From Candidatus Daviesbacteria bacterium (lineage in GTDB: Bacteria > Patescibacteriota > Microgenomatia > Daviesbacterales > UBA10151): a stretch of DNA of 64,000 nucleotides. Position numbers and translations under genes: made by a program. Positions within the stretch are counted from its first letter, which is position 1, and every line of letters begins with the position of its first letter. The stretch covers positions 216,229 through 280,228 of the forward strand of contig JAQTZF010000001.1 of NCBI GenBank assembly GCA_028687915.1, read 5' to 3'. Under the pieces are notes generated by a model, which searched no databases, was not told the DNA's origin, and worked only from the letters and a program-made list of their open reading frames with translations. Below, piece after piece: positions 15,416-41,407 of the stretch.

Positions 15416-16015
15416 ATGAATCAAAAAGGTTTTGCCCTAATTTTGATAATTTTAGGTGTTGCTCTGATTTTAGGCATAGCAGGTGGGGTTTACTATTTAG
15501 GACAAGTATCTGTAAAATTACCAACCTTTCAAACTTCTGTTTCTTCTACTAAGACCCCTGCAAAAACTACCAGTAATTCTACACCCCTTGTTGATGGAGC
15601 TGCTAATTGGAAAACATATCAAAATTCAAAACTAGGAATAGAATTCATGTATCCTTCAGACTATACAATACAACAGATGAGTGATATTAGTGTTGATTTG
15701 TTAGTCCCCTATAGGCCGAAAGGTCAAATAATGGATGTACATATTAAGTTTTTAAGGAAAATAGTTTTTCCAAAAGAAGATATGAAGAAATGTGGTGAAA
15801 AAGAAGACATTGTTTATGATCTTAGATCAACAAATTGTTATAAAGATATTATGATAGGTGGAGTTGCAGGGATAAAATATGCCCAGGGATGGGATAATAT
15901 AATAATTACAGAAAAACCAGAACTTCAAATAATAATAGATGGTGCAATTATTTATAGATTTTCCTATGGAGAAACAATAGATAAAATTCTTTCTACTTTT
16001 AAATTCACAAATTAA
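15416..16015 (+). CDS. Secreted/anchored paralog-family protein (pilin-like leader MNQKGFALILIILGV…, core …NWKTYQNSKLGIEFMYP…, C-terminal …ILSTFKFTN)
   Basis: Shares the N-terminal leader, central motif and C-terminal motif with the paralogs at 31.7-38.2 kb. Confidence 0.6.
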   Translation: MNQKGFALILIILGVALILGIAGGVYYLGQVSVKLPTFQTSVSSTKTPAKTTSNSTPLVDGAANWKTYQNSKLGIEFMYPSDYTIQQMSDISVDLLVPYRPKGQIMDVHIKFLRKIVFPKEDMKKCGEKEDIVYDLRSTNCYKDIMIGGVAGIKYAQGWDNIIITEKPELQIIIDGAIIYRFSYGETIDKILSTFKFTN

Positions 16016-30159: not shown

Positions 30160-30585
30160 ATGCCTACAATAAACCAGCTAGTAAGACACGGTCGAAAGAC
30201 TACTACCAAAAAGATTAAGGCAACTGCGCTAAGACGTAGCTTTAATTCCAATGAGCGAAAATATAGTACTTCCTTTAATCCTCAAAAAAGAGGTGTGGTT
30301 ACAGTTGTTAAAACTATGACTCCTAAAAAACCAAATTCAGCACTTCGTAAAGTTGCCAGGGTAAGACTTTCTAATAAAACAGAAGTTACTGCTTATATTC
30401 AGGGAGTAGGGCATGATTTAGCAGAACATGGTATAGTACTCGTTCGTGGTGGTAGGGTTAAAGATTTACCAGGTGTAAAATATCACATCATCAGAGGTAA
30501 ACTAGATATGGGTGGCGTACAAAAAAGAATGACAAGCAGATCAAAATATGGAGCTAAAAAACCAGGAGGAGCTAAAGCAGCTTAA
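30160..30585 (+). CDS. rpsL: 30S ribosomal protein S12
   Basis: [13 protein letters not shown]…[17 protein letters not shown]…. Confidence 0.96.
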
Positions 30586-30590
30586 TTAAT

Positions 30591-31067
30591 ATGCCAAGAG
30601 CAGGAAAAGTAGAAAGAAGAGAAATAGAAGCAGATCCAATTTATAATTCTAAGTTGGTTTCCCGATTCACTAATCGGGTAATGGTTGATGGTAAAAAAAC
30701 TATTGCTCAGAAACTTGTCTATCAAGCCTTAGATTTAATTGAAAAGTCAGGTAAAAATCCTTTAACTATTTTTGAAACAGCTATTGCTAATGCAGCTCCA
30801 AAGATGGAAGTCAGACCAAGAAGGGTTGGGGGAGCTTCTTATCAAATCCCACAAGAAGTTAGAGGAGACAGACGTGAAGCTTTGGCTATTAGATGGATTG
30901 TGATGGCAGCCAGATCCCGATCAAATAAAGAATATCATTCCTTTGGTGAAAAACTAGCAGCAGAATTGATTGATGCTGCAGAAGGTAAAGGAATTGCTAT
31001 TAAGAAAAAAGAAGATATGTTAAAAACAGCAGAAGCCAACAGAGCATTTGCCCACTTTAGATTTTAA
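30591..31067 (+). CDS. rpsG: 30S ribosomal protein S7
   Basis: MPRAGKVERREI…YQIPQEVRGDRREALAIRWIV…. Confidence 0.95.
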   Translation: MPRAGKVERREIEADPIYNSKLVSRFTNRVMVDGKKTIAQKLVYQALDLIEKSGKNPLTIFETAIANAAPKMEVRPRRVGGASYQIPQEVRGDRREALAIRWIVMAARSRSNKEYHSFGEKLAAELIDAAEGKGIAIKKKEDMLKTAEANRAFAHFRF

Positions 31068-31078
31068 TTTCTCCTTAT

Positions 31079-31474
31079 ATGTTAGAAGCAAAAATAGTTC
31101 CTGAGAAGTGTATTAGTGTTGGATTAGGAATCTATGACGATAGGCATGTGTTTGAAATGTATGCGAAAAGTAGGCTTACTAGTATAGTAGGACATAAACT
31201 TGGTCCAAACTTAGATCAATTTCAACAGTATACTGCATTGATGGTCAGAGTATTTGAAGGTGAAGTTGTTCCTTATTCAGAAGCACAAGCTTTAGGGCTT
31301 GATCCAAAAATCGCCAGACAAATGGCTATTATCGCTAAAAATAGTTATCGAAAACAAATAGCAACTTTAGAAGCAGTGCTTGATGACTCTCTTTATCCAG
31401 ACAATTCCTCAGAGTTTGCAGATCGGGGTCAAGATTCAGAAAAGTATATTGAATGGCGCCGATATTGTCCTTAA
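31079..31474 (+). CDS. Hypothetical cytoplasmic protein (131 aa), first gene of the island between rpsG and fusA
   Basis: Intact ORF 11 nt after rpsG. No transmembrane segment or motif recognised. Confidence 0.45.
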   Translation: MLEAKIVPEKCISVGLGIYDDRHVFEMYAKSRLTSIVGHKLGPNLDQFQQYTALMVRVFEGEVVPYSEAQALGLDPKIARQMAIIAKNSYRKQIATLEAVLDDSLYPDNSSEFADRGQDSEKYIEWRRYCP

Positions 31475-31490
31475 TGCTATACTGGTTTTA

Positions 31491-31721
31491 GTGAAAAAAA
31501 CTTCTGCCGGATTTGCTCCTATTTATTTAATAATTATCCTTTTTATTCTTGGGGTAATGGGTGGAGCTTATTATTATGGTAAATCATCTGTTTCTAAAAC
31601 TTCAGTTATTGATTTTAATTCTTGTAAGAAAGCGGGTTATCCAATCCGTTTACTAAATTGTCAAGGATGCCCAAAATATTGTGATACACCATGGGGAGCT
31701 AGTTATTCTGAAAAACAATAA
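31491..31721 (+). CDS. Small (76 aa) protein: pilin-like hydrophobic leader plus a four-Cys mini-domain (C-x12-C-x2-C-x3-C). Proposed GTG start.
   Basis: VKKTSAGFAPIYLIIILFILGVMGGAYYYG leader matches the family leader. GTG at 31491 is the first start in frame after the stop of the upstream gene. The ORF-track start (31380) would overlap that gene by 95 nt. Confidence 0.4.
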   Translation: MKKTSAGFAPIYLIIILFILGVMGGAYYYGKSSVSKTSVIDFNSCKKAGYPIRLLNCQGCPKYCDTPWGASYSEKQ

Positions 31722-31722
31722 A

Positions 31723-32769
31723 ATGAATCAAAAAGGCTTTACAGCCCAAATTATTTTAATAATTGTAGGAATAATAATTTTATTAGTTCTAGGTTATACT
31801 TTTTTAGCAAAACCTTATAAAGTTTATGGTGAAAATATAGCCTTTCCTCCTTATAAAATAGGGCAGCTATCTTTTTCTGAAAAAGTAACATATCTGTTTA
31901 GAAAACCGGCAGTTGGGGATAGAGTTATTTTTTCTCCTTTAGGACAATACTCGAGTTATATTGGAATTATTACCAAAGAAGAAAACCAAAATGGAGTAAT
32001 TATTTATACTATCTGTTCCACAGGGAAAGGGTTTCCCTGGACAGTTTCAATAGAAAAAATTTCCGGGAAAATATATTATCCCGTTTTAGATCAAGATGAT
32101 GCTAAAAGAATTGCAGAATCATTCAATTCTTCTCCTACCACTCCTACTCCAACTCCAATAGAAATGCCAATAAGTTTTGAGGAGACAAAAAAGTGGCCAA
32201 CTTATACTAATACAAAATATGGTTTTTCTATTAAATATCCGGAAAATATGCAATTTAAAGATATTACAGAAGAACCTACTATTAGCGGAATGGATTATAA
32301 AACTGGTGAAAATTCATATGTCCCTTTAAAGGAATACTTTAAATATGCTAAACGCGAATTAATAGTTACTTTTGCAGAACAAAGTAAACTTGATGATAAA
32401 ATGACCCCGATTGTACCCAAAAAGATTACAGATTTTTGGATTTCAGGAATTTCATTGCATGTTCAAAAAGGAGATCAGCAAATAATAGAAGAATATAAAG
32501 ATAAAAAATTAGCTGAAAAGGCAGGGGAGCAACCGCCTTCTCCAGGCCGTAAGCTAGAAATTACAAATATAATAATTAATGGTATTAGTGTGACTAAATT
32601 TTCGGAGATTAAGCATTTTTACACTGACGATTTAGTTGGAGCTTCTGAAGCAATTTGGCAAAAAGACGGATTCGTATATTTATTATCTAATGATTACGAT
32701 ATGGGTTACGGAAATAAATATTTTGATGCAATGCTTTCTACTTTTAAATTTAATGAAAGAACTCCTTGA
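31723..32769 (+). CDS. Secreted/anchored paralog-family protein (348 aa)
   Basis: ATG at 31723 gives MNQKGFTAQIILIIVG…. Core …KKWPTYTNTKYGFSIKYPENMQ…, C-terminus …AMLSTFKFNERTP. TPTPTP linker. Confidence 0.6.
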   Translation: MNQKGFTAQIILIIVGIIILLVLGYTFLAKPYKVYGENIAFPPYKIGQLSFSEKVTYLFRKPAVGDRVIFSPLGQYSSYIGIITKEENQNGVIIYTICSTGKGFPWTVSIEKISGKIYYPVLDQDDAKRIAESFNSSPTTPTPTPIEMPISFEETKKWPTYTNTKYGFSIKYPENMQFKDITEEPTISGMDYKTGENSYVPLKEYFKYAKRELIVTFAEQSKLDDKMTPIVPKKITDFWISGISLHVQKGDQQIIEEYKDKKLAEKAGEQPPSPGRKLEITNIIINGISVTKFSEIKHFYTDDLVGASEAIWQKDGFVYLLSNDYDMGYGNKYFDAMLSTFKFNERTP

Positions 32770-32837
32770 TGTTAGTGAGGAGTATGTAAAAGAATAACTG
32801 ATTGACAATATAAAGCAGTTAAATTAATCTTAATTTA

Positions 32838-33398
32838 ATGATGAAGTTTAGTCCTCTTTTAGGAATCATTGCCGCAATAATTCTAATTGTTGTTGTCTCT
32901 ATCGGTTACTACAACTCTTTTGTAACTCAAACAAATGCTATTGAAGGCCAGTGGAAACAAGTTGAAGTTCAATATCAAAGAAGGGTTGATTTGATCCCTA
33001 ATTTAGTAGCTTCAGTAAAAGGAATTCAACAACAGGAACAAAAGATTTTTGGGGATGTTAGTGCTGCCAGGGCAAATTATACTGGTGCAAAATCCCCCGA
33101 AGAAAAAGTTCAGGCAGCTAATCAATTAGAAGGATCTCTTAGTAGGTTGTTGGCAATTTTTGAAAATTACCCTCAAATAAAAAGTGATCAGGCAGTTATA
33201 AAATTAATGGATGAATTAGCAGGAACAGAAAATAGAGTAGCTGTTGAGAGGAGAAGATACAACGAATTTGTTCAAAGTTATAATACTTCTGTTGGTACTT
33301 TGCCTGGTAAGATCTTTGCTTCATTTATGGGATTTACACCTAAAAGTTATTTTCAAGCTGCTTCTGGAAGTGAAAATGCACCAAAAGTAAATTTCTGA
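32838..33398 (+). CDS. lemA: LemA family membrane protein
   Basis: N-terminal transmembrane segment then …YYNSFVTQTNAIEGQWKQVEVQYQRRVDLIPNLV…, typical of LemA. Confidence 0.8.
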   Translation: MMKFSPLLGIIAAIILIVVVSIGYYNSFVTQTNAIEGQWKQVEVQYQRRVDLIPNLVASVKGIQQQEQKIFGDVSAARANYTGAKSPEEKVQAANQLEGSLSRLLAIFENYPQIKSDQAVIKLMDELAGTENRVAVERRRYNEFVQSYNTSVGTLPGKIFASFMGFTPKSYFQAASGSENAPKVNF

Positions 33399-33404
33399 TA
33401 ATGA

Positions 33405-34331
33405 ATGTTAAATCAAATCCGTAATTTTGTATTCCTAACTCTTGTAAGTCTATTCTTATTTATTGCTCCAAAAGTTTATGCAAATCATATTCCTGCTCCA
33501 TCCGGCCATGTTAATGATTTTGCCGGAGTTCTCACTACTGAACAGAAAAACAACCTTGAAAATTCTTTAATATATTATGAGCAGCAAACTACAAATGAAA
33601 TTGCTATTGCTATAGTTAAAAGTTTAAATGGAGATAGTATTGAAAACTTTGCTGTTAAGACTTTTGAAGAATGGAAAATTGGTAAAAAGGGTAAAGATAA
33701 CGGCATATTATTTATTGCAGCAATAGATGATAGAAAAATGAGGATAGAGGTAGGATATGGATTGGAGCCTTCTTTAACTGATAACCAAGCAGGTGAGATT
33801 ATCAGAAATATTATTGCTCCCAAATTTAAACGAGAAGATTATTACGGTGGAATTTCTGATGGAGTATTAGCTATTGAGGATCAATTAAGCAAGAACCCGG
33901 CAGAGGTAGCAAGGGGACAAGCAAAAGTGACTTTTTGGTCTGTTATTAAAGGGCTTTATGGAATTTTTGGCGATCTAGTGGTTTACGCTCTATTGTTTTT
34001 TACGTATTTACCTTTTTCGTATTTTTTTGCTTTTTTAGCTCGGACAGAGGGAATTTGGTTAGGTGGTATTATTGGTGGGGTAATCGGAGGGATTTTGGGT
34101 TGGATTTTTGGAAGTACATTATCTCCAATTATTTTTTCATTTATTGGAGGTGGAAGTTTAGGGTTTTTGTTGGATTATATTGTATCTAATAATTACAAAA
34201 AAAGAAAAGCAGCAGGGCTTAGCACTAGTTGGTGGAGTTCTGGTGGGGGGTTTTCTACTCACAGTGGCGGAGGGTTTGGTGGATTTGGAGGGGGTTCGTC
34301 TGGTGGAGGTGGATCAAGCGGTAGTTGGTAA
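33405..34331 (+). CDS. TPM-domain (YgcG/TLP18.3-like) membrane protein with a Gly-rich C-terminus
   Basis: …VNDFAGVLTTEQKNNLENSLIYYEQQTTNEIAIAIVKSL…ILFIAAIDDRKMRIEVGYGLE… TPM domain, two transmembrane segments, GGGFGGFGGGSSGGGG tail. LemA-TPM is a conserved gene pair. Confidence 0.75.
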   Translation: MLNQIRNFVFLTLVSLFLFIAPKVYANHIPAPSGHVNDFAGVLTTEQKNNLENSLIYYEQQTTNEIAIAIVKSLNGDSIENFAVKTFEEWKIGKKGKDNGILFIAAIDDRKMRIEVGYGLEPSLTDNQAGEIIRNIIAPKFKREDYYGGISDGVLAIEDQLSKNPAEVARGQAKVTFWSVIKGLYGIFGDLVVYALLFFTYLPFSYFFAFLARTEGIWLGGIIGGVIGGILGWIFGSTLSPIIFSFIGGGSLGFLLDYIVSNNYKKRKAAGLSTSWWSSGGGFSTHSGGGFGGFGGGSSGGGGSSGSW

Positions 34332-34373
34332 ATTAACTTGTCTTATTATCCTGTATAACTTATTATTTAATTA

Positions 34374-35492
34374 ATGCCCAATTCACAAAAGGTTAATATC
34401 CTGAGCGAGTATAACGAGTCGAAGGGTTTTGCACCCATTTTAATAGTTATTTTAATCGCTGTAGCAATTGGTGGATATTTAATATATTCTAACTACTTAA
34501 AGAATCAAACAAAAATTAATGTTCCTCAACAAACTTCTAACACTGAATCAACTAATTCTGGAAAAATTGCTAATTGGGAAACTTTAACACGAAACGATAA
34601 TGAATTTTCTTTTCAATATCCTCAAAATTGGAAATTAGTTCCTACGGATACTTCTAAGAATGGCTATAATTTTGAGTTTGTAGATCCTGATAAAATTTAT
34701 ACGCTCGATTTCTATTCACAATCTAATATTAATAAAGATACTGGCAAACCGTATAAAACACTATTGGAATTTGAGGATTTAGTTTCAGATCAACTTAAAA
34801 TTGTAGTTGATGGTCAAGAAGCTATTCAGGTTATGCCTCGAGCAGGCAGTGAGAACGCAAATTTGATTGATGTTTTTTCCAGAGATTCCACACAAATTTA
34901 TACTCTGAAATTAACTACTAATTCCAAACAGGATGACGCAGCAATTAAAAAAGGTCAAGAATTGTTTAAACAAATTCTTTCTACATTTAGAATTAAGCAA
35001 TTGCAACCTGCTTTTGTAATAAGTAAAGAATCCTTGGTTGGAATTTGGCAAAATGATTTTATGTTAGCAGCAGGTTGGGGAGACCGTTATCAATTTTACC
35101 CCTCTGGTAAATATGCTCATATAGCATCTGAAATGAATAATTGTACAAATACAGATTTAGGTGAAGTAGGCACATGGGAACTAAATAGTAATAAATTGTT
35201 GCTAACTGCTAAGCAAAAGATTATTTTAAAAGTTGCAGGAACAGTAGATGATCCTGCATGCGGACAGAAGGTTGTAGGTGGAGAATCAGCACAAGAAGTA
35301 GCAAATCCCAAAGTGGTTGAAATAGATTTGAGTGCACGCAAACCCCAGGCAAACGAACCATCTTATTATCCTTCTTTATTTTTCGGGAAAAAAGTTTATT
35401 GGAAATTTAATGATAAGTTAAAAGATAATCCGCCTTTTAAAGTTCTCCCTTTTTTAAGTGGTTGTGGACCAGATTTGGACCCATGTTTATAA
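34374..35492 (+). CDS. Secreted/anchored paralog-family protein (372 aa, divergent member with an extra Cys-containing C-terminal region)
   Basis: Leader …ESKGFAPILIVILIAVAIGGYLIY, core …IANWETLTRNDNEFSFQYPQNWK…, …FKQILSTFRIKQ motif in mid-protein. Confidence 0.55.
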   Translation: MPNSQKVNILSEYNESKGFAPILIVILIAVAIGGYLIYSNYLKNQTKINVPQQTSNTESTNSGKIANWETLTRNDNEFSFQYPQNWKLVPTDTSKNGYNFEFVDPDKIYTLDFYSQSNINKDTGKPYKTLLEFEDLVSDQLKIVVDGQEAIQVMPRAGSENANLIDVFSRDSTQIYTLKLTTNSKQDDAAIKKGQELFKQILSTFRIKQLQPAFVISKESLVGIWQNDFMLAAGWGDRYQFYPSGKYAHIASEMNNCTNTDLGEVGTWELNSNKLLLTAKQKIILKVAGTVDDPACGQKVVGGESAQEVANPKVVEIDLSARKPQANEPSYYPSLFFGKKVYWKFNDKLKDNPPFKVLPFLSGCGPDLDPCL

Positions 35493-35500
35493 AATAATAT

Positions 35501-36595
35501 ATGAATCAAAAAGGATTTGCTCCAATAATTATAATTCTAGGAATTGTTTTTACAGTTATAGGAATTGGGGGGTATTTCTTATTGTCAAATAAAAACTTTG
35601 TAAAATACTCACCCACAAACGAAATTTCTCCTACTCCTACTGTTGCAATACAATCTTCTTCCGATGTGATCTGTCCAGCTAATGCAGTAGTGACTTTTGG
35701 TTACGATACCACATATTTAACTCCTGCTCCACAAGATCCAAATCAAGTATGCAAGTTTTCTATTACTGTAGATAATGTCTCGGATTTAGTTCAAGAAATA
35801 AATCAAGCTAGCAAATACCCAAACCTGAAGATATTTAACATTCAAGGACCATCTGGAGGAGAAAAAACAGTATTTATGCCACCTGAAATATGGCAATTAA
35901 AAAATTTGCAATCCTTAAACATAGCATATGTAGAATTTAAAAATAGCACACTACCTGCTGAAATTAGTAATGTAAGTAATCTTAAACGTTTATCTGTATA
36001 TGGTTCTAATATTAGTTCTATTCCACCACAAATTAGTCAGCTTACACAGTTAACATACTTAGATTTTGGAGCAAATAATATCACAGTTCTTCCACCAGAA
36101 ATTGGAAGTTTAAAGAATTTAGCAACACTTAACTTATTTCATAACGAATTAAACTCTTTGCCTGATTCGATCGGTAATCTACAAAATTTGAAAAAACTTG
36201 TTTTGTCTAACAACTCTTTTTCTATATTTCCTGAAGTGTTAACGAAACTCAATGGTCTTGAGGAGCTTAATATGAATCAAAATCATTTAGCTTCAGTTTC
36301 TCTTCAGATAGGAAATATGAATCATCTGAAAAAACTTTCATTAAATAATTGGCCTAACCATGCCTCTGCAGCTTGTGGTGGAGCAGTCTGTCAAACAGAT
36401 CTTAAACAAGATATGGAGAATGGAAATAAAATATTAACTTTCCCTGATAGTATTGCTCAAATGTCTTCTTTATTGGAATTGGATTTAAGCAATGTTTCAA
36501 CACCGGTTGAAGTAATAAACCATCTTAAGCAAATACTACCAAAAACTACAATTAAGTTTGATCCTCCTGGATCTTATAGCAACTATCCTAAATAA
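35501..36595 (+). CDS. Paralog-family protein carrying a leucine-rich-repeat (LRR) array (364 aa)
   Basis: Leader MNQKGFAPIIIILGIV…. At least 8 tandem ~23-aa LRRs of LxxLxxLxLxxNxLxxLPxxIgxLxx type (…LKNLQSLNIAYVEF…LPAEISNVSNLKRLSVYGSNISSIPPQISQLTQLTYLDFGANNITVLPPEIGSLKNLATLNLFHNELNSLPDSIGNLQNLKKLVLSNNSFSIFPE…). Confidence 0.7.
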   Translation: MNQKGFAPIIIILGIVFTVIGIGGYFLLSNKNFVKYSPTNEISPTPTVAIQSSSDVICPANAVVTFGYDTTYLTPAPQDPNQVCKFSITVDNVSDLVQEINQASKYPNLKIFNIQGPSGGEKTVFMPPEIWQLKNLQSLNIAYVEFKNSTLPAEISNVSNLKRLSVYGSNISSIPPQISQLTQLTYLDFGANNITVLPPEIGSLKNLATLNLFHNELNSLPDSIGNLQNLKKLVLSNNSFSIFPEVLTKLNGLEELNMNQNHLASVSLQIGNMNHLKKLSLNNWPNHASAACGGAVCQTDLKQDMENGNKILTFPDSIAQMSSLLELDLSNVSTPVEVINHLKQILPKTTIKFDPPGSYSNYPK

Positions 36596-36629
36596 TTTGT
36601 ATGTATAATTTTGTGATAAGATTTAGTTA

Positions 36630-37241
36630 ATGCTAAAGGAAAAAGGCTTTGCACCAATAATTATAATTTTAGGAATTGTTTTATTTTTAGGTATAGTTGG
36701 TGGAGTGTATTATTTTAGTAAAAATTCAAGTAGTGCTATAAAAAATAATCCTGTAAATACCCCAACCCCAACTGCAACTCTAAAGGTAGATGAAACAACT
36801 AATTGGAAAACTTATACAAATACGGAATATGGATATTCAATAAAATATCCAGAAAATATTTCCTTAGAAGAAATGGGTGTGGATGTAAAAGGTAAACTAG
36901 TTAAATGGATTTGGATTGATAAACAAATCCAAATTTCTGTTACTAAAGCGAATTCTTCAGAATGCAAAGTAGATTGTCCGATTATTTCAAAGATAGAATC
37001 TGTTAAAATCGATAACACAGAGGGGAAAAAGCAGAGTGGTTATATTAGTCAAATAGGAGGGCGTATACCTCAGTCTTTCCAACAGGTTATTATCCCACAC
37101 AATGGTAGCTATTTTAATATTTCCCTCTATGAATTAAAAAATGATAGTATAAAGAGCTCTGAAAGAAAGGCGGGTACAATCACAGAAGCGGAAATTAAGC
37201 TTTTTAATCAAATTCTTTCTACCTTTGAATTTACTAAATGA
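36630..37241 (+). CDS. Secreted/anchored paralog-family protein (203 aa)
   Basis: MLKEKGFAPIIIILGIVLFLGIVGGVYYF leader, TPTPT linker, …TTNWKTYTNTEYGYSIKYPENIS…, …FNQILSTFEFTK C-terminus. Confidence 0.6.
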   Translation: MLKEKGFAPIIIILGIVLFLGIVGGVYYFSKNSSSAIKNNPVNTPTPTATLKVDETTNWKTYTNTEYGYSIKYPENISLEEMGVDVKGKLVKWIWIDKQIQISVTKANSSECKVDCPIISKIESVKIDNTEGKKQSGYISQIGGRIPQSFQQVIIPHNGSYFNISLYELKNDSIKSSERKAGTITEAEIKLFNQILSTFEFTK

Positions 37242-38167
37242 ATCAAAAGGGTTTTGTTCCAATAATTATAATTCTAGGAATTGTTTTATTTTTAACGATT
37301 GTTGGTGGTGCTTATTATTTTGGAAGAATGACTATAAAAGGTAAAATCTTAGACTATAACTCGATGCCTTTTGATAATCCTAATTTAGAAATTAAAGGAA
37401 TTAATGGCTCTTTTGGTAAATGTGAAGTTAAAAAGACAGGGAATTTTATTTGTAAAGCCCTATTATTGCCAAATCAAACTTATGGTATTTATTTAAATGA
37501 TGACAAAACTAATGCTTTTGTTCTTCAACATTTTACTGCTGAATTTGCAAAAATAGTTGATATAGGAGAGAGACAAGTACCAAGGACTAGTGAACCACAA
37601 GCCACTAGTATAGATGAAACTGCTGATTGGAAAACTTATACCAATACTAAATATGGTTATTTAATTAAATATCCCGAAAAATTGAAGATAAGAGAAAGAG
37701 GGAGTTTGAGTCCGTCATTGATTGATAGTTTAGATATATGTTTGAAGGAAAGTTGTGGTGACCCAGATATTATATCTGTTAACGTTATAACCAAAGAATT
37801 TGCATTAGGATCACTTAATAATCCTTCGATTAGCAAAGAAGAAATTACCATTAGCAATATTAAAGGTATAAAGAAGGTAGGTGAATATCATTACGGAAAA
37901 GAAATTATTGTTTATTTCCCTGCGCCTAATGGAGCTAGTTATGTAAATATTGGTACGAATAGTCAAAATGCACAAATTTTTGATACTATTCTTTCTACTT
38001 TTAAATTTACAGACACAAATTCAGGAAGTGGGAAATATACTTGTCCAGAAAATGGATATCAAAATTGTATGCCAATTTTAGATGCGGAAGGACAAAAACA
38101 ATGTAGCAAAGAAGCATTAGATTGGAAGCAAACTAATTGTCCCAATTTTTCAGGTGCGGCATATTAA
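37238..38167 (+). CDS. Secreted/anchored paralog-family protein (309 aa, the family domain preceded by a small N-proximal domain)
   Basis: MNQKGFVPIIIILGIVLFLTIVGGAYYFG leader, …TADWKTYTNTKYGYLIKYPEKLK…, …FDTILSTFKFTDTN… motifs. Start overlaps the previous gene by 4 nt. Confidence 0.6.
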   Translation: MNQKGFVPIIIILGIVLFLTIVGGAYYFGRMTIKGKILDYNSMPFDNPNLEIKGINGSFGKCEVKKTGNFICKALLLPNQTYGIYLNDDKTNAFVLQHFTAEFAKIVDIGERQVPRTSEPQATSIDETADWKTYTNTKYGYLIKYPEKLKIRERGSLSPSLIDSLDICLKESCGDPDIISVNVITKEFALGSLNNPSISKEEITISNIKGIKKVGEYHYGKEIIVYFPAPNGASYVNIGTNSQNAQIFDTILSTFKFTDTNSGSGKYTCPENGYQNCMPILDAEGQKQCSKEALDWKQTNCPNFSGAAY

Positions 38168-38184
38168 TTTTCAGATCATATGAG

Positions 38185-38213
38185 TTGACTTTGGGCTGCT
38201 TTTGCCTTAATAT
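38185..38213 (+). promoter_or_regulatory. Candidate sigma70-like promoter (TTGACT-N17-TAATAT) upstream of the mini-GreA/fusA genes
   Basis: TTGACT at 38185-38190, TAATAT at 38208-38213. Confidence 0.3.
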
Positions 38214-38222
38214 AAGCAAGTA

Positions 38223-38246
38223 GGCCTCCTTCAAGAGGCTTTTTCT
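38223..38246 (+). terminator. Rho-independent terminator-like hairpin at the 3' end of the paralog island
   Basis: GGCCTC/GAGGCT stem (38223-38228 / 38235-38240, one G·U pair), loop CTTCAA, then TTTTTC. Confidence 0.45.
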
Positions 38247-38253
38247 TATATAT

Positions 38254-38478
38254 ATGGATGCAAAACTGAAAGCAGAAAAACTGAAAATGTGGCAGGGAAA
38301 ACTCAAAAAACTCCAAGATGAGTTGGAAGCTATCATGGTCAGACGCGGGGAGGCTATTGCTATGGGTGATTTATCAGAAAATGCTGCTTTTTCTATGGCT
38401 GAAGAAGATGCAATTACCTGGAGAGTCAGAATTGAAGAGATTGAAAAGATCATTAAAACCATTGAGGATACTAAATAA
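38254..38478 (+). CDS. GreA/GreB N-terminal coiled-coil domain-only protein (74 aa), a mini-Gre factor with no C-terminal FKBP-like RNAP-binding domain
   Basis: …[39 protein letters not shown]… aligns to E. coli GreA 22-75 (…[33 protein letters not shown]), including the tip acidic D and E. The TAA stop overlaps the fusA ATG (TAATGG). Confidence 0.6.
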
Positions 38479-40619
38479 TGGCTGTTACCACCAAAACCAA
38501 GAGGGATTTCCCTTTGGATCAAATCCGTAATATTGGAATTATTGCCCACATTGATGCGGGAAAAACCACCACAACTGAAAGAATCCTTTTTTATACTGGT
38601 AAAACTTATAAAATCGGAAATATTGATGAAGGAACCACAGTTACTGACTGGATGGAGCAGGAAAGAGAAAGAGGAATAACTATTGTTTCTGCTGCCATTA
38701 CTACTTTTTGGACTCCTAAGACAGGTCCCTATAAAGATCAGGAGACCAGAATTAACATTATTGATACTCCCGGACACGTTGATTTTACAGCTGAAGTGGA
38801 AAGATCCCTTCGTGTACTTGATGGAGGTGTAATCGTTTTGGATTCAGGTTCAGGTGTGCAATCCCAAACAGAAACAGTCTGGAGACAAGCAAATAAATAT
38901 AAAGTTCCGCTTATTGCTTTTGCAAATAAAATGGATGTAGTGGGAGCAGATTTTTTAGCTACTATTCAATCAGCTAGAGATAGATTGGGAGCTAATGCAA
39001 TTGCTTATAACTTACCAATTGGTAGTGAAAATGATTTTAAAGGAGTAATAGATTTATTAACCCAAAAAGCTTTTGTATGGGAAGGTAATGATACCGGAGC
39101 TAATTTTAATGAAATAGATATTCCTGCAGATATGGCTGACGCAGTAAAAGAGCATCGTGAAAAATTAGTTGAAGAAATCTCTGGTACAGATGATGTGCTG
39201 ATGGAAAAATATCTTGGTGGAGAAGAAATCTCTGTTGAAGAACTTAAAAAAGCTTTGCGAAAAGCAGTAATTAATAATGAAATTGTGCCTGTTTTGGCTG
39301 GATCATCTCTTAGAAATAAAGGTGTGCAGCAAATGCTTGATGGTGTTATTGAATATTTACCTTCACCACAAGATGTTAATGAAATTGTGGGAGAAAATCC
39401 TGCTACAAAAGAACAAGAAGTTAGAAACGCTGATCCTTCTGCACCATTATCTGCTTTAGCTTTTAAAGTTCAGGTTGATCCTCACGTTGGAAAGTTAACT
39501 TTTATTCGAATTTATTCCGGAACCCTAAAATCAGGTTCATATCTTTATAATTCCACCAAAGATATTAAAGAAAGAATTGGCCGTCTTATGTTAATGCATT
39601 CTAATGACAGAGAAGAAATTGAAGAAGCATATGCCGGAGAAATTGTGGCTGCAGTTGGTTTAAAAGACACTATTACCGGTAACTCTATTTGTGATGAAAA
39701 CAAACCTATTATTTTGGAATCAATTAATTTCCCAGAACCTGTTATTTCACTTGCCATTGAACCAAAAACCAAATCAGATCAGGAAAAATTAGGTTTAGCT
39801 TTATCAAGGCTTTCAGAAGAAGATCCTACTTTTAGGGTTAAGTCTGATCATGAAACAGGTCAAACCATTATTTCCGGAATGGGAGAGTTACAACTTGAGA
39901 TTTTAGTGGATAGAATGAAGAGGGAATTTAAAGTGGAAGCTAATGTTGGTCAACCACAGGTAGCATATAAAGAAACTATTCAAAAAACAGCCACAGGAGA
40001 AGGAAAATACATCAGACAAACCGGTGGTCGTGGTCAATACGGACATTGTTGGCTTAGAATTGAACCGCTTCCTCGTGGTTCCGGACGTGAATTCGTTTCA
40101 GAAATTGTGGGAGGAGCAATTCCCCGTGAGTTTATTGGTCCAATTGAAAAAGGTGTAATTGAAAAAGAAGACACAGGTATCCTTGCTGGTTATCCTGTAA
40201 CTGATATTAGGGTAGTTGTTTATGATGGATCTTTCCATGATGTTGATTCATCTGAGGTATCCTTTAAAATTGCAGGTTCTTTAGGTTTGTCTGAAGCAGC
40301 ACATCAAGCAGACATGATTTTACTTGAACCAATCATGAAAGTTGAAGTAACAACACCAGAAGAATTCCTCGGTGATATGATTGCAGATTTATCTTCCAAA
40401 AGAGCTCAAATCTTATCAACTGAGATGAGAGGAAATGCCAGAGTAGTATTAGCACTTGTTCCTTTGGCAGAAATGGGTGGTTATGCTACTTCAATTAGAT
40501 CAATGTCTCAGGGAAGAGCTACTTATTACATGGAAGCTGATCATTATGAACCAGTGCCATCAAATGTTACCCAAAAAATTATTGCAGATTCAGGCTTCAC
40601 AGGCCGTATTGAACACTAA
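38478..40619 (+). CDS. fusA: Elongation factor G
   Basis: [23 protein letters not shown], 713 aa. str-operon position. Confidence 0.96.
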
Positions 40620-40642: not shown

Positions 40643-41407
40643 ATGGAATTTCTTTGGTATATTTTAGGCCCGTTATTTTTATTTTTTCTTCTTACCAGTT
40701 TAAGAGTGGTGCAAGAATATGAACGGGGAGTAATCTTCTTTTTAGGGCGATGTACCGGGGTTCGTGGTCCGGGTTTAATTATTTTAATCCCTATTTTAGA
40801 AAGAATGATGAAGACAACACTTAGAACCATTACCATGGATATTCCTTCCCAAAAGATTATTACTAAAGATAATGTTTCAATTGATATTGCTGCTGTTGCT
40901 TATTATCATATTGTTGACCCACAAAAATCAGTGGTGGCAATTGAAGATGTTTATTCGGCTGTAAATCAAATTTCCCAAACTACAGTCAGAAATGTAGTGG
41001 GACAATTTATGTTGGATCAATTATTGGCAAAGACTAGTGAAATTAACACCCAGATTAAAAACGTAATTGATACTCACACTGAACCTTGGGGAGCAAATGT
41101 TACTGCTGTTGAAATTAAGGATATTATTTTACCTGATAATATGCAAAGGGCTATGGCAAAAGAAGCAGAGGCAGAGAGAGAAAGAAGAGCAAAAATTGTG
41201 GCTGCAGAAGGAGAATTTCAGGCTGCACAAAAGCTAGGGGAAGCAGCAGACCTTATAACCAAGCATCCAGTAGCCTTACAACTTAGAACCTTACAAACCA
41301 TGGCAGAAATTGCAACGGAAAAGAACTCTACTATTATTTTCCCAGCTCAGTTTATGGGTACAGTACAAGAAGCGATCAGAACTCTGGCTAAAGATGCTTC
41401 AAAATAA
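40643..41407 (+). CDS. SPFH/band-7 (stomatin/prohibitin-like) membrane protein
   Basis: N-terminal transmembrane segment, …[15 protein letters not shown]…, …[24 protein letters not shown]… are typical of the SPFH family. Inserted between fusA and tuf. Confidence 0.8.

What the first reader, a model, noticed from the sequence alone, without database searches (positions are those of the whole stretch)
31079..38167. 7.1-kb island between rpsG and fusA holding a tandem family of leader-bearing secreted proteins plus LemA-TPM
The rpoB-rpoC-rpsL-rpsG-fusA-tuf order is among the most conserved in bacteria, yet here rpsG and fusA are separated by nine genes. Six of them (31491, 31723, 34374, 35501, 36630, 37238) open with an almost identical hydrophobic leader (MNQKGFAPIIIILGIVLFL.IVGG.YYF), identical even at the DNA level (ccaataattataattctaggaattgtttt). 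This resembles a class-III (prepilin-like) signal but lacks Glu+5. Four members also share a core motif (NWKTYTNT.YG[YF]SIKYPEN) and a C-terminal motif (F..ILSTFKF). The regions between the shared motifs are unrelated and differ in length, and include one LRR array and one Cys-rich mini-domain. A seventh copy sits at 15416-16015. A LemA/TPM membrane pair is embedded. This looks like a recently expanding family of surface or secreted proteins, which may be relevant to an episymbiotic lifestyle. It is transcriptionally inserted in the ribosomal superoperon and is bounded by a terminator at 38223-38246.
Basis: partly seen in the sequence, partly recalled or inferred. Interest (0 to 1): 0.85.

Follow-up and report, generated by a model that had tools for sequence, protein, structure and literature searches.

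The report
Surface-protein gene cluster inside str operon
In a Candidatus Daviesbacteria (CPR) genome, nine extra genes sit between the ribosomal gene rpsG and fusA, mostly membrane-tethered surface proteins that share a pilin-like leader lacking the usual glutamate; the cluster is real and differs sharply between close relatives, but it belongs to a very large uncharacterised family and is not unique.

Summary
Nine same-strand ORFs (31079-38167) separate rpsG from a 74-aa GreA-N-like gene and fusA. Six of them, plus one at 15416, start with M-x-Q-K-G-F-A-P-(I/L)n.

The shared core is a PsbP/Mog1-fold domain (Pfam PF18933; AF2 model plus Foldseek). It has a conserved first hairpin and last helix and an unalignable middle. 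One member carries LRRs instead. A LemA-TPM pair and an orphan ORF are embedded.

The genome is a Candidatus Daviesbacteria MAG. Two relatives with 95% and 87% identical rpsG hold only 3 or 2 different leader genes at the same site. More distant relatives hold nothing or unrelated genes.

The family is large: 41,699 50%-identity clusters at E<=1e-3. Tandem arrays also occur elsewhere in Microgenomates. The paralogs here are only 25-40% identical, so this is fast turnover of an old family, not a recent expansion.

The leader meets the class III (prepilin) criteria except Glu5 (0 of 51). The N_methyl model does not detect it. It is followed by a short helix and a disordered Pro/Thr linker, so these are not pilins. 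I favour cleavage after Gly with the protein left tethered to the membrane; this step is unproven.

The rpsG-fusA gap is occupied in about half of the CPR loci examined.

The parts
15416..16015 (+). g0: seventh family member outside the cluster (leader MNQKGFALILII + PsbP-like domain, 199 aa)
   Evidence: PsbP_2 E 2.7e-4, below cut-off; family profile E 4e-55
30591..31067 (+). rpsG (ribosomal protein S7), left flank
   Evidence: (PF00177)
31079..31474 (+). g1: 131-aa orphan ORF with no leader and no TM, starting 11 nt after rpsG (PHQ59_01320)
   Evidence: no family hit; only itself among 5.8e9 clusters
31491..31721 (+). g2: 76-aa leader (MKKTSAGFAPIY...) plus a 4-Cys mini-domain
   Evidence: leader match E 1.5e-6
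31723..32769 (+). g3: leader + about 110 aa weakly similar to signal peptidase I (GENIAFP where the catalytic Ser motif would be) + PT linker + PsbP-like domain
   Evidence: PF10502 E 1.2e-4, 22.5 bits against a cut-off of 22.9; E 2e-47; AF2 single-sequence model unusable
32838..33398 (+). LemA family membrane protein
   Evidence: PF04011 E 8.7e-56
33405..34331 (+). TPM-domain protein with a hydrophobic N-terminus that reads like a Sec signal, a C-terminal TM region and a Gly-rich tail
   Evidence: PF04536 E 7e-43; sequence
34374..35492 (+). g6: long leader (…NESKGFAPILIV) + PsbP_2 domain + about 165-aa C-terminal domain of unknown type
   Evidence: (PF18933 E 1.9e-8, 35 bits, above the cut-off of 27)
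35501..36595 (+). g7: leader + leucine-rich-repeat domain; no PsbP-like motifs
   Evidence: (LRR_14 E 4.7e-25; LRR_8 E 1.2e-16)
36630..37241 (+). g8: minimal member (leader, PT linker, PsbP-like domain; PHQ59_01355)
   Evidence: AF2 pLDDT 77; Foldseek: PsbP/CyanoP E about 2e-5
37238..38167 (+). g9: leader + about 90-aa N-terminal beta-rich segment + PsbP-like domain + 4-Cys tail (PHQ59_01360)
   Evidence: tail 85-92% identical in P0003 and P0137
38185..38213 (+). sigma-70-like promoter match TTGACT-17 nt-TAATAT, conserved upstream of the greA-N-like gene in five genomes
38222..38241 (+). G+C-rich hairpin followed by a T-run (terminator-like); right boundary of the cluster
   Evidence: 7 pairs, 1 compensatory
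38254..38478 (+). 74-aa GreA/GreB N-terminal-domain-only protein, conserved directly upstream of fusA in this lineage
   Evidence: (PF03449 E 3.2e-8)
38478..40619 (+). fusA (EF-G), right flank

Best explanation
This is a lineage-specific, rapidly changing cluster of genes for surface-exposed proteins that are tethered to the membrane by their N-terminus. It has lodged inside the str operon of a Candidatus Daviesbacteria (Microgenomates) genome.

Proposed mechanism:
1. The nine genes are read through from rpsL-rpsG. There is no + strand terminator-like site inside the cluster. Transcription ends or is attenuated at the hairpin at 38222-38241. A conserved TTGACT-17-TAATAT element serves greA-N/fusA/tuf. 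This step is inferred.
2. The shared leader (short basic peptide ending in Gly, then about 20 hydrophobic residues) inserts with the N-terminus inside. It is a class III-type (prepilin-like) signal that has lost Glu5. I consider it most likely that prepilin peptidase cuts after the Gly. Glu5 is dispensable for cleavage but needed for homopolymer assembly. Without Glu5 and without a pilin head, the protein stays tethered by its helix instead of entering a filament. This step is inferred and untested.
3. A disordered Pro/Thr linker carries the cargo away from the membrane. The linker and fold are shown by the model.
4. The cargo is a binding module: a PsbP/Mog1-fold domain in five members, LRR in one and a Cys-rich knot in one. 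The PsbP-like domain keeps its framing hairpin and helix while its middle is unalignable, so each copy probably binds a different ligand. The ligands are unknown.
5. The LemA-TPM pair is an ordinary membrane module carried along.
For: Anatomy.

Fold: the AF2 model of g8 has a helix at 8-31, a low-confidence linker at 32-59 and a beta sandwich plus C-terminal helix. The top Foldseek PDB hits are PsbP and CyanoP (E about 2e-5, probability 1.0), followed by extracytoplasmic Tsi3, BT_1490, Apa, LpqN and DcrB.

Turnover:
- Flanking proteins are 93-96% identical to L002, but the best matches for cluster genes are 37-66%.
- L002 has 3 genes in the gap and L003 has 2, and they are different genes.
- The L002 228-aa protein is a mosaic of a g6-like leader, a g8-like linker and N-motif (66% over 86 aa) and a g9 tail (85%).

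Leader:
- Among 78 family representatives with a short N-terminus, 51 have [KRHQ]-G-hydrophobic and about 10 more have Gly at the boundary.
- The consensus is Q(-3) K(-2) G(-1) F(+1) A P I.
- None of 51 has an acidic residue at +5.
- The motif is kept even when it lies 17-22 residues from the start codon (g6, P0003, P0004).
- The same leader carries LRR, PKD and Cys-rich cargo.
- The TPM protein in the same cluster has a hydrophobic N-terminus without the K-G motif that reads like an ordinary Sec signal, so the leader looks like a separate class (reading of the sequence, not a prediction tool).

Literature:
- Gly-1 is critical and Glu5 is dispensable for processing but required for homopolymer assembly; processed pilins remain membrane proteins; Sulfolobus sugar-binding proteins carry class III signals (PMC4471445).
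- PilD is widespread in CPR (PMC6744442).

Same slot elsewhere: canonical N_methyl proteins occupy the rpsG-fusA gap in Kaiserbacteria and Paceibacterota, one of them with a lectin-type domain.

Transcription: the only + strand terminator-like site between 31079 and 38254 is the one at 38222, and that element is conserved.
Against: - No cleavage evidence exists.
- Pfam N_methyl and the NCBIfam scan (which I expected to hold a prepilin N-terminal model) do not match these leaders at E<=0.1. N_methyl does match the Parcubacteria proteins in the same slot at 32 bits.
- A leader profile finds no significant pilin in PDB sequences.
- No pilD or T4P gene is in the window, and the rest of the genome could not be read.
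- About 46% of the top family representatives use a long Pro/Gln-rich cytoplasmic tail plus a plain TM helix instead. The domain therefore works with an ordinary uncleaved anchor.
- Pro at +3 is not typical of bacterial prepilins.
- Promoter and terminator counts in the region are not above shuffled expectation.
- No ligand or function is known for PF18933.
Confidence: 0.5

Rival explanations
1. Same cluster and same surface display, but the leader is simply an uncleaved N-in signal-anchor (type II membrane topology). On this view the K-G-F-A-P conservation reflects common descent and insertion or packing constraints, not a peptidase site.
For: - Nearly half of the family representatives carry a plain TM helix after a long cytoplasmic tail with no K-G motif.
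- N_methyl and the NCBIfam scan are silent.
- The leader profile has no significant match to pilins.
- Glu5 is absent in every case.
- The helix is short and followed by a linker, unlike pilins.
Against: - A Q-K-G-F consensus identical to the type IVa prepilin cleavage site is kept across clusters whose domains are otherwise unalignable. It is also kept when preceded by 12-20 extra residues.
- A positive-inside anchor needs only the Lys, not the Gly-Phe.
Confidence: 0.35
2. The proteins are genuine type IV filament components: minor or tip pilins, or bindosome-like subunits. The T4P machinery extracts them from the membrane and displays their cargo domains on or beside pili.
For: - The leader is class III-like.
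- Glu5-less subunits can be co-assembled with wild-type pilin, and the archaeal bindosome offers a precedent (PMC4471445).
- Saccharibacteria PilX1 and PilX2 carry cargo domains and non-canonical signals (PMC12206443).
- Canonical N_methyl proteins, one with a lectin-type domain, sit in the same rpsG-fusA slot in Parcubacteria.
Against: - There is no alpha1-C helix or pilin head. A 24-residue helix is followed by about 28 disordered Pro/Thr-rich residues.
- No T4P genes were seen next to the family in the window or in the three other contexts annotated with Pfam.
- Half of the family uses non-pilin anchors.
Confidence: 0.08
3. The array is a set of membrane-anchored immunity or decoy proteins, analogous to the PsbP-fold Tsi3. 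They would neutralise cell-wall-degrading effectors of hosts or competitors and diversify in an arms race.
For: - Tsi3 is among the Foldseek hits (E 8e-5).
- The genes occur in tandem arrays with a hypervariable middle.
- Toxin-antitoxin genes are interspersed in the Woesebacteria array.
Against: - The Tsi3 match is weaker than the PsbP matches (query TM-score 0.38).
- No effector genes are adjacent.
- LRR and PKD cargo on the same leader suggests general binding or adhesion.
- There is no experimental hint.
Confidence: 0.04
4. The 7.1 kb is a horizontally acquired mobile island, or an assembly chimera.
For: - G+C is slightly lower (0.30-0.34) than in the flanks (0.36-0.39).
- The content is absent from the closest genomes.
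- g1 is an orphan.
Against: - There is no integrase or transposase, no flanking direct or inverted repeats and no tRNA.
- The same family occupies the same junction in L002, L082 and L003.
- An identical arrangement is found on a separately listed assembly contig.
- The family is native to Microgenomates.
Confidence: 0.03

Closest known systems
Class III (prepilin-type) signal peptides of type IV pilins, e.g. P. aeruginosa PilA MKAQKG|FTLIE (sequence quoted from my own knowledge; definition from PMC4471445)
   Same: Short hydrophilic leader ending in K-G, a hydrophobic +1 residue (Phe) and about 20 hydrophobic residues. The Q-K-G-F consensus is the same as the type IVa cleavage site.
   Different: Positions +2 to +5 are A-P-I-(I/L) instead of T-L-I-E, and Glu5 is never present. 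The N_methyl model does not detect the leader. The helix does not continue into a pilin head and is followed by a disordered Pro/Thr linker. The cargo is a non-pilin domain.
Sulfolobus bindosome sugar-binding proteins and archaeal pilins that lack Glu5 (PMC4471445)
   Same: Non-filament binding proteins that use a class III signal. Glu5 is often absent.
   Different: Those are archaeal, with a dedicated Bas assembly system. No comparable machinery was seen near these genes. Processing here is untested.
Pfam PF18933 (PsbP_2) and the PsbP/Mog1 fold: PsbP, CyanoP, and extracytoplasmic bacterial members such as M. tuberculosis LpqN, Apa and MTC28, Salmonella DcrB, and Tsi3
   Same: Same fold. g6 passes the Pfam cut-off. 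The Pfam profile matches g6 from residue 23, that is from within the N-terminal TM helix. Location is extracytoplasmic.
   Different: Four of the five members here fall below the Pfam cut-off. They share family-specific framing motifs (NWKTYTNT..G.S.KYP and F.QILSTFKF) around a hypervariable middle, and they have add-on domains. They have no link to photosynthesis and no lipobox.
Modular pilins with cargo domains in CPR (Saccharibacteria PilX1 and PilX2, PMC12206443) and the N_methyl + Laminin_G_3 protein between rpsG and fusA in Kaiserbacteria locus L022
   Same: An N-terminal hydrophobic helix carries a binding domain. A non-canonical signal is noted for PilX1 and PilX2. The L022 gene occupies the same rpsG-fusA slot.
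   Different: Those lie in or with T4P loci, or carry a canonical N_methyl motif with Glu5. The Daviesbacteria genes do neither.
Variable surface-protein gene arrays (general kind)
   Same: Tandem paralogs with conserved export and framing segments, a divergent middle, mosaic recombinants and presence/absence differences between close strains.
   Different: No dedicated switching or diversification machinery was found: no invertase, no DGR reverse transcriptase and no long template repeats. The paralogs are anciently diverged.

Membership tests
Class III (prepilin-type) signal peptide / type IV pilin | Hydrophilic leader peptide ending in Gly(-1) | tested here: met
   All 7 window members have G before the hydrophobic run (K-G in 6, A-G in g2). 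51 of 78 short-N-terminus family representatives have [KRHQ]G+hydrophobic, and about 10 more have a boundary Gly.
Class III (prepilin-type) signal peptide / type IV pilin | About 21 predominantly hydrophobic residues after the cleavage site | tested here: met
   FAPIIIILGIVLFLGIVGGVYYF in g8. The AF2 helix spans 8-31.
Class III (prepilin-type) signal peptide / type IV pilin | Glu at +5 (almost invariant in bacteria) | tested here: not met
   0 of 7 in the window. 0 of 51 representatives have an acidic residue at +5; the position is L, I or V.
Class III (prepilin-type) signal peptide / type IV pilin | Match to the curated N-terminal methylation-site model (Pfam PF07963) or to an NCBIfam prepilin N-terminal model | tested here: not met
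   No hit at E<=0.1 in the Pfam or NCBIfam scans. Positive control: PF07963 scores 32 bits on the L022 and L062 proteins.
Class III (prepilin-type) signal peptide / type IV pilin | About 50-residue alpha1 helix whose C-terminal half packs on a globular pilin head ('lollipop') | tested here: not met
   The AF2 model has a 24-residue helix, then about 28 low-confidence Pro/Thr-rich residues, then a PsbP-like sandwich.
Class III (prepilin-type) signal peptide / type IV pilin | Cleavage (and N-methylation) by a dedicated prepilin peptidase | not testable with these tools
   Needs biochemistry or a SignalP-6-type predictor. There is no pilD in the window. PilD is reported as widespread in CPR (PMC6744442).
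PsbP_2 (PF18933) / PsbP-Mog1 fold | Score above the Pfam gathering cut-off (27 bits) | tested here: inconclusive
   g6 scores 35.0 bits and passes. g0 scores 21.4, g3 16.0 and g8 14.1, and g9 has no hit, so these fall below the cut-off. All five are joined by the family profile at E 2e-47 to 4e-69, but they are themselves rows of that profile.
PsbP_2 (PF18933) / PsbP-Mog1 fold | Antiparallel beta-sheet sandwich with flanking helix, matching solved PsbP structures | tested here: met
   g8 model pLDDT 77. Foldseek PDB hits 1v2b, 2xb3 and 2lnj at E 1.7-2.6e-5, probability 1.0, target TM-score 0.57-0.64.
LemA-TPM membrane pair | Adjacent genes matching PF04011 and PF04536 | tested here: met
   E 8.7e-56 and 7e-43, 6 nt apart.
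Leucine-rich-repeat protein | Multiple LRR units above cut-off | tested here: met
   g7: LRR_14 88.5 bits (cut-off 40) and LRR_8 60.7 bits.
Mobile genomic island | Integrase or transposase, flanking repeats, tRNA or att site | tested here: not met
   None found.
str operon (rpsL-rpsG-fusA-tuf) | rpsG immediately followed by fusA | tested here: not met
   7.4 kb lies between them here. The gap is -17 to 141 nt in the non-CPR loci and at least about 0.5 kb in roughly half of the CPR loci that hold both genes.

The most novel reading that the evidence does not exclude
The Q-K-G|F-A-P leader is a true, previously unrecognised bacterial class III sorting signal that works without Glu5. On this reading it is cut by PilD and used across Microgenomates, in a family of 41,699 50%-identity clusters, to hand diverse binding domains (PsbP-like, LRR, PKD, Cys knots) to the type IV filament machinery. 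The proteins would then be displayed as a bindosome-like surface layer or as exchangeable pilus-tip adhesins, and hypervariable arrays such as this one would set partner or host specificity.
Probability: 0.12. Interest if true: 0.8.

Novelty: new variant of a known kind. Interest (0 to 1): 0.5.

Why it matters
CPR bacteria are thought to live attached to other cells, yet almost nothing is known about their surface proteins beyond type IV pili. This locus gives a compact, well-delimited example of an abundant Microgenomates surface-protein family. It has three features of interest.

- A conserved N-terminal motif that looks like a prepilin cleavage site without Glu5. If it is processed, it would be a bacterial counterpart of archaeal class III signals on non-pilin proteins. 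Signal-peptide predictors and the N_methyl model would be missing a whole class of substrates.
- A 'conserved frame, hypervariable middle' PsbP-fold binding domain.
- Replacement of the whole gene set between genomes whose ribosomal proteins are 95% identical. This marks the genes as candidates for partner recognition or for an arms race.

The locus also shows that the rpsG-fusA junction is not a fixed point in CPR genomes. In several lineages it is used as a slot for pilin-type or surface-protein genes.

Tried and rejected
1. Leader-only homology search. A 40-aa version then found no candidates and cost one search.
2. Leader profile (A5) against PDB sequences. No significant hit. Three of nine weak hits were pilins at E 3-5, so the test is inconclusive.
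3. AlphaFold of g3 without an alignment. pLDDT was 36, so the model is unusable and no fold search was run. The signal-peptidase-like N-terminus of g3 therefore rests only on a sub-threshold Pfam/NCBIfam match. phmmer against PDB gave nothing.
4. The afdb50 fold library was not available.
5. g1 had no Pfam, NCBIfam, PHROGs or PDB match and no homologue, so it remains an orphan.
6. Mobile-element reading. No repeats, integrase or tRNA were found, so it was rejected.
7. Diversity-generating retroelement or cassette switching. No reverse transcriptase and no long template/variable repeat pair were found among the cluster ORFs, so it was rejected.
8. Regex search for the GxGD motif of prepilin peptidases in about 2 Mb of fetched loci found nothing. 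This is uninformative, because the loci are small samples of each genome.
9. Rfam had no family for the conserved promoter/hairpin element.
10. 'Recent expansion' was rejected on the paralog identities and the family size.
11. Literature searches for PsbP-like proteins in Patescibacteria and for pili in Daviesbacteria gave nothing relevant.

Full report
**1. What is in the sequence**

The ORF list shows rpoC, rpsL (30160-30585) and rpsG (30591-31067), followed by nine + strand ORFs:
- g1, 31079-31474
- g2, 31491-31721 (GTG start; the mechanical ORF begins at 31380)
- g3, 31723-32769
- LemA, 32838-33398
- TPM, 33405-34331
- g6, 34374-35492
- g7, 35501-36595
- g8, 36630-37241
- g9, 37238-38167

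After these come an 86-nt spacer, a 74-aa ORF (38254-38478) and fusA (38478-40619). Gaps within the cluster range from -4 to 68 nt.

A six-frame scan finds the K-G-F-(A/V/T)-(P/A/L) plus hydrophobic-run motif only at the starts of g0 (15416), g3, g6, g7, g8 and g9. g2 carries A-G-F-A-P.

The quoted 29-mer occurs three times: exact in g7 and g9, and with one mismatch in g8. It occurred 0 times in 100 shuffles. It is therefore not in all six genes. Over the first 90 nt the leaders are 44-71% identical.

A profile of the family detects exactly these seven ORFs in the 64-kb window. The DNA identity covers three genes. The LRR protein shares only the leader.

**2. Where it comes from, and whether the arrangement is real**

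g8 and g1 are identical to proteins PHQ59_01355 and PHQ59_01320 of a 'Candidatus Daviesbacteria bacterium' MAG on a 1,096,538-bp contig. The identical 9-kb arrangement is also on a Logan assembly contig of run SRR22315507.

**3. Domains**

- Pfam gives LemA (E 9e-56), TPM (7e-43), LRR families for g7 (LRR_14 5e-25) and PsbP_2/PF18933 for g6 (35 bits, cut-off 27).
- Sub-threshold PsbP_2 signals appear for g0, g3 and g8.
- An alignment of window members and database hits (A1) shows one architecture: leader; Pro/Thr-rich linker; N-W-K-T-Y-T-N-T-x-Y-G-[YF]-S-[IF]-K-Y-P; a middle of variable length that cannot be aligned; F-x-Q-I-L-S-T-F-K-F; and optional C-terminal additions.
- AlphaFold2 on g8 with this alignment gives pLDDT 77. 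It shows a helix at 8-31, a low-confidence linker at 32-59, a nine-strand sandwich and a C-terminal helix.
- Foldseek against PDB puts PsbP and CyanoP first (E about 2e-5, probability 1.0). They are followed by extracytoplasmic proteins of the same fold: Tsi3, BT_1490, Apa, LpqN, DcrB and MTC28. The shared 'core' is therefore a PsbP/Mog1-fold domain.
- g3 carries in addition about 110 residues with a weak signal-peptidase-I match (22.5 bits against a cut-off of 22.9). By eye, GENIAFP sits where I recall the catalytic Ser motif G-x-S-M-x-P. A single-sequence model of g3 failed.
- g1 has no relative anywhere.

**4. Related genomes**

Scanning one genome per species with RpsG returned 80 loci.

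In the closest one (L002, Microgenomates MAG JBAZXP010000001.1), RpoC, RpsL, RpsG, the GreA-N-like protein, EF-G and EF-Tu are 93-96% identical to the window. The rpsG to greA-N gap there is only 1.8 kb and holds three genes:
- a 99-aa leader + Cys-rich protein;
- a leader + PsbP-like gene split into two ORFs;
- a 228-aa protein.

The 228-aa protein is a mosaic. It has a g6-type extended leader, a g8-type linker and N-motif (66% over 86 aa) and the g9 Cys-rich tail (85% over 48 aa), while its middle is unalignable.

L003 (RpsG 87%) has two other leader genes. Neither L002 nor L003 has LemA, TPM, LRR, g1, g3 or g6 at this site.

More distant Daviesbacteria differ again:
- L005 has rpsG-greA-N-fusA contiguous.
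- L006 has a small ORF in the gap.
- L007 has a short-chain dehydrogenase and a histidine phosphatase.
- L011, titled only 'Patescibacteria group bacterium', has 5 kb of unrelated genes.

The site is therefore a hotspot whose content is replaced much faster than the flanks diverge.

**5. How unusual a split rpsG-fusA is**

Among the fetched loci, the non-CPR bacteria that retain fusA after rpsG have gaps of -17 to 141 nt. About half of the CPR loci that hold both genes have 0.5-5 kb between them.

In two Parcubacteria, the gap holds a canonical prepilin-type protein: L022 (Kaiserbacteria) and L062 (Paceibacterota). Pfam N_methyl scores 32 bits on both, and the L022 protein also has a Laminin_G_3 lectin-type domain. 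The slot is repeatedly used for pilin-type or surface-protein genes.

**6. Size and age of the family**

- A profile search of 1.84 billion cluster representatives gives 41,699 hits at E<=1e-3, 20,729 at E<=1e-10 and 851 at E<=1e-30. Many hits have 2-6 tandem domains.
At least 361 of the first 600 pattern matches encoded relatives.
- Other genomic contexts are unrelated to ribosomal operons and to T4P genes.
- A Woesebacteria contig has at least 8 family genes in tandem, interspersed with toxin-antitoxin pairs, and includes a leader + PKD protein.
- The window paralogs are 25-40% identical outside the leader.

This is an old, very large family with local turnover, not a recent burst.

**7. The leader**

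I classified the N-termini of the 154 best family representatives.
- 78 have a hydrophobic segment within 14 residues of the start. Of these, 51 have [KRHQ]-G-hydrophobic and about 10 more have Gly at the boundary.
- The consensus is Q(-3) K(-2) G(-1) F(+1) A(+2) P(+3) I(+4) [LIV](+5).
- None of 51 has an acidic residue at +5.
- The motif persists when it is preceded by 12-20 extra residues (g6, P0003, P0004, P0021).
- 72 representatives instead have a 15-60-residue Pro/Gln-rich N-terminal tail and a plain TM helix, and 65 of these lack K-G.

By the published definition (PMC4471445), a class III signal has a hydrophilic leader ending in Gly, about 21 hydrophobic residues and, in bacteria, Glu5. 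Gly-1 is critical for cleavage. Glu5 is dispensable for cleavage but needed for homopolymer assembly. Processed pilins remain membrane proteins until they are extracted.

The leader here meets the first two criteria and fails the third. The N_methyl model does not recognise it (positive control). A leader profile finds no significant pilin among PDB sequences.

The model shows no pilin head, so these are not pilins. Whether PilD cuts them could not be tested. No pilD or T4P gene is in the window and the rest of the genome was out of reach. PilD is reported as widespread in CPR (PMC6744442).

**8. The right boundary**

Between g9 and the greA-N-like gene lie TTGACT-17 nt-TAATAT (38185-38213) and a G+C-rich hairpin with a T-run (38222-38241). 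Both are conserved upstream of the greA-N-like gene in L002, L003, L006 and L007, although the upstream genes differ. The stem shows one compensatory change. L005, where the genes abut, lacks them.

There is no other + strand terminator-like site inside the cluster. I infer read-through from rpsG, termination or attenuation at the hairpin, and a separate promoter for greA-N-fusA-tuf. Site counts in the region do not exceed shuffled expectation, so this inference rests on position and conservation only. Rfam has no matching family.

**9. Interpretation**

- Shown: the anatomy, the fold, the family size, the conservation of the leader and the turnover between close genomes.
- Inferred: extracytoplasmic display. 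The grounds are the N-terminal hydrophobic helix with a basic residue on its N side, the Pro/Thr linker, the Cys-rich add-ons and the extracytoplasmic structural relatives.
- Inferred and uncertain: cleavage after Gly by prepilin peptidase, with the protein left tethered. I favour this at about even odds.
- Main rival: an uncleaved signal-anchor.
- Less likely: filament-associated display, an immunity-type role, or a mobile island.

**10. Verdict**

This is a real feature of moderate interest. It is a new variant of known kinds: a class III-like signal without Glu5 on non-pilin cargo, attached to PF18933-type PsbP-fold proteins. It sits in a slot that CPR genomes often fill. Its claims of recency and of exceptional synteny breakage are not supported.

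Noticed in passing
window 38254-38478: A 74-aa protein consisting only of the GreA/GreB N-terminal coiled-coil (PF03449 E 3e-8). By eye it keeps a GDLSENAAF stretch like the acidic-tip motif I recall from GreA. There is no C-terminal domain. It lies directly upstream of fusA (start overlapping or within about 10-150 nt) and is conserved there in L002, L003, L005, L006 and L007 (56-93% identity). It looks like a mini-Gre factor fixed inside the str operon of this lineage.
   Followed up: partly
window 38185-38241; L002 about 12223-12279; L003, L006, L007 upstream of the greA-N-like gene: A conserved non-coding module: TTGACT-17 nt-TAATAT followed within about 8 nt by a G+C-rich hairpin and a T-run. 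The stem sequence differs between genomes but pairing is kept. There is no Rfam family. It could be an overlapping terminator/promoter or a 5' leader/attenuator for greA-N-fusA-tuf.
   Followed up: partly
window 40643-41407: An SPFH/Band-7 (stomatin-like) membrane protein gene lies between fusA and tuf. In L002 (96% identical EF-G and EF-Tu) fusA and tuf are only 95 nt apart, so this is a second strain-specific insertion in the same operon.
   Followed up: partly
L022 10278-11126; L062 551-1198: In a Kaiserbacteria and a Paceibacterota genome the rpsG-fusA gap holds a canonical prepilin-type protein (N_methyl 32 bits). The L022 protein also has a Laminin_G_3 lectin-type domain. The gap is at least about 0.5 kb in about half of the CPR loci examined and 141 nt or less in the non-CPR loci.
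   Followed up: partly
window 31079-31474: g1 is a 131-aa ORF starting 11 nt after rpsG. It has no TM segment, no family match and no homologue other than itself in 5.8 billion clusters. Whether it is a real gene is open.
   Followed up: partly
window 31723-32150 (g3 residues 28-145): A sub-threshold match to signal peptidase I (PF10502, 22.5 bits against a cut-off of 22.9; TIGR02227 E 1.3e-3). By eye, Asn sits where I recall the catalytic Ser (GENIAFP against G-x-S-M-x-P). This may be a pseudo-peptidase domain fused to a PsbP-like domain.
   Followed up: partly
window 38021-38164 (g9 residues 262-309); L002 12059-12202; P0137, P0109: A 4-Cys tail (KYTCPENGYQNCMPILDAEGQKQCSKEALDWKQTNCPNFSGAAY) is 74-92% identical among proteins whose PsbP-like middles cannot be aligned. 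This indicates module shuffling. A different Cys-rich tail (CGGFAG...C...YPDA.GKC) ends one gene each in L002 and L003.
   Followed up: partly
L002 10857-11518 (also L082): A leader + PsbP-like gene is split into two overlapping ORFs (121 and 113 aa) in the closest relative. This is probably a frameshifted pseudogene and is consistent with ongoing gene decay at this locus.
   Followed up: no
L142 8770-18276 (= L164/L165, Woesebacteria GW2011_GWB1_38_8): At least 8 family genes lie in tandem between two penicillin-binding-protein genes, interspersed with HicAB, MazE-PIN and Fic-type toxin-antitoxin modules. One leader-bearing gene carries a PKD domain.
   Followed up: partly
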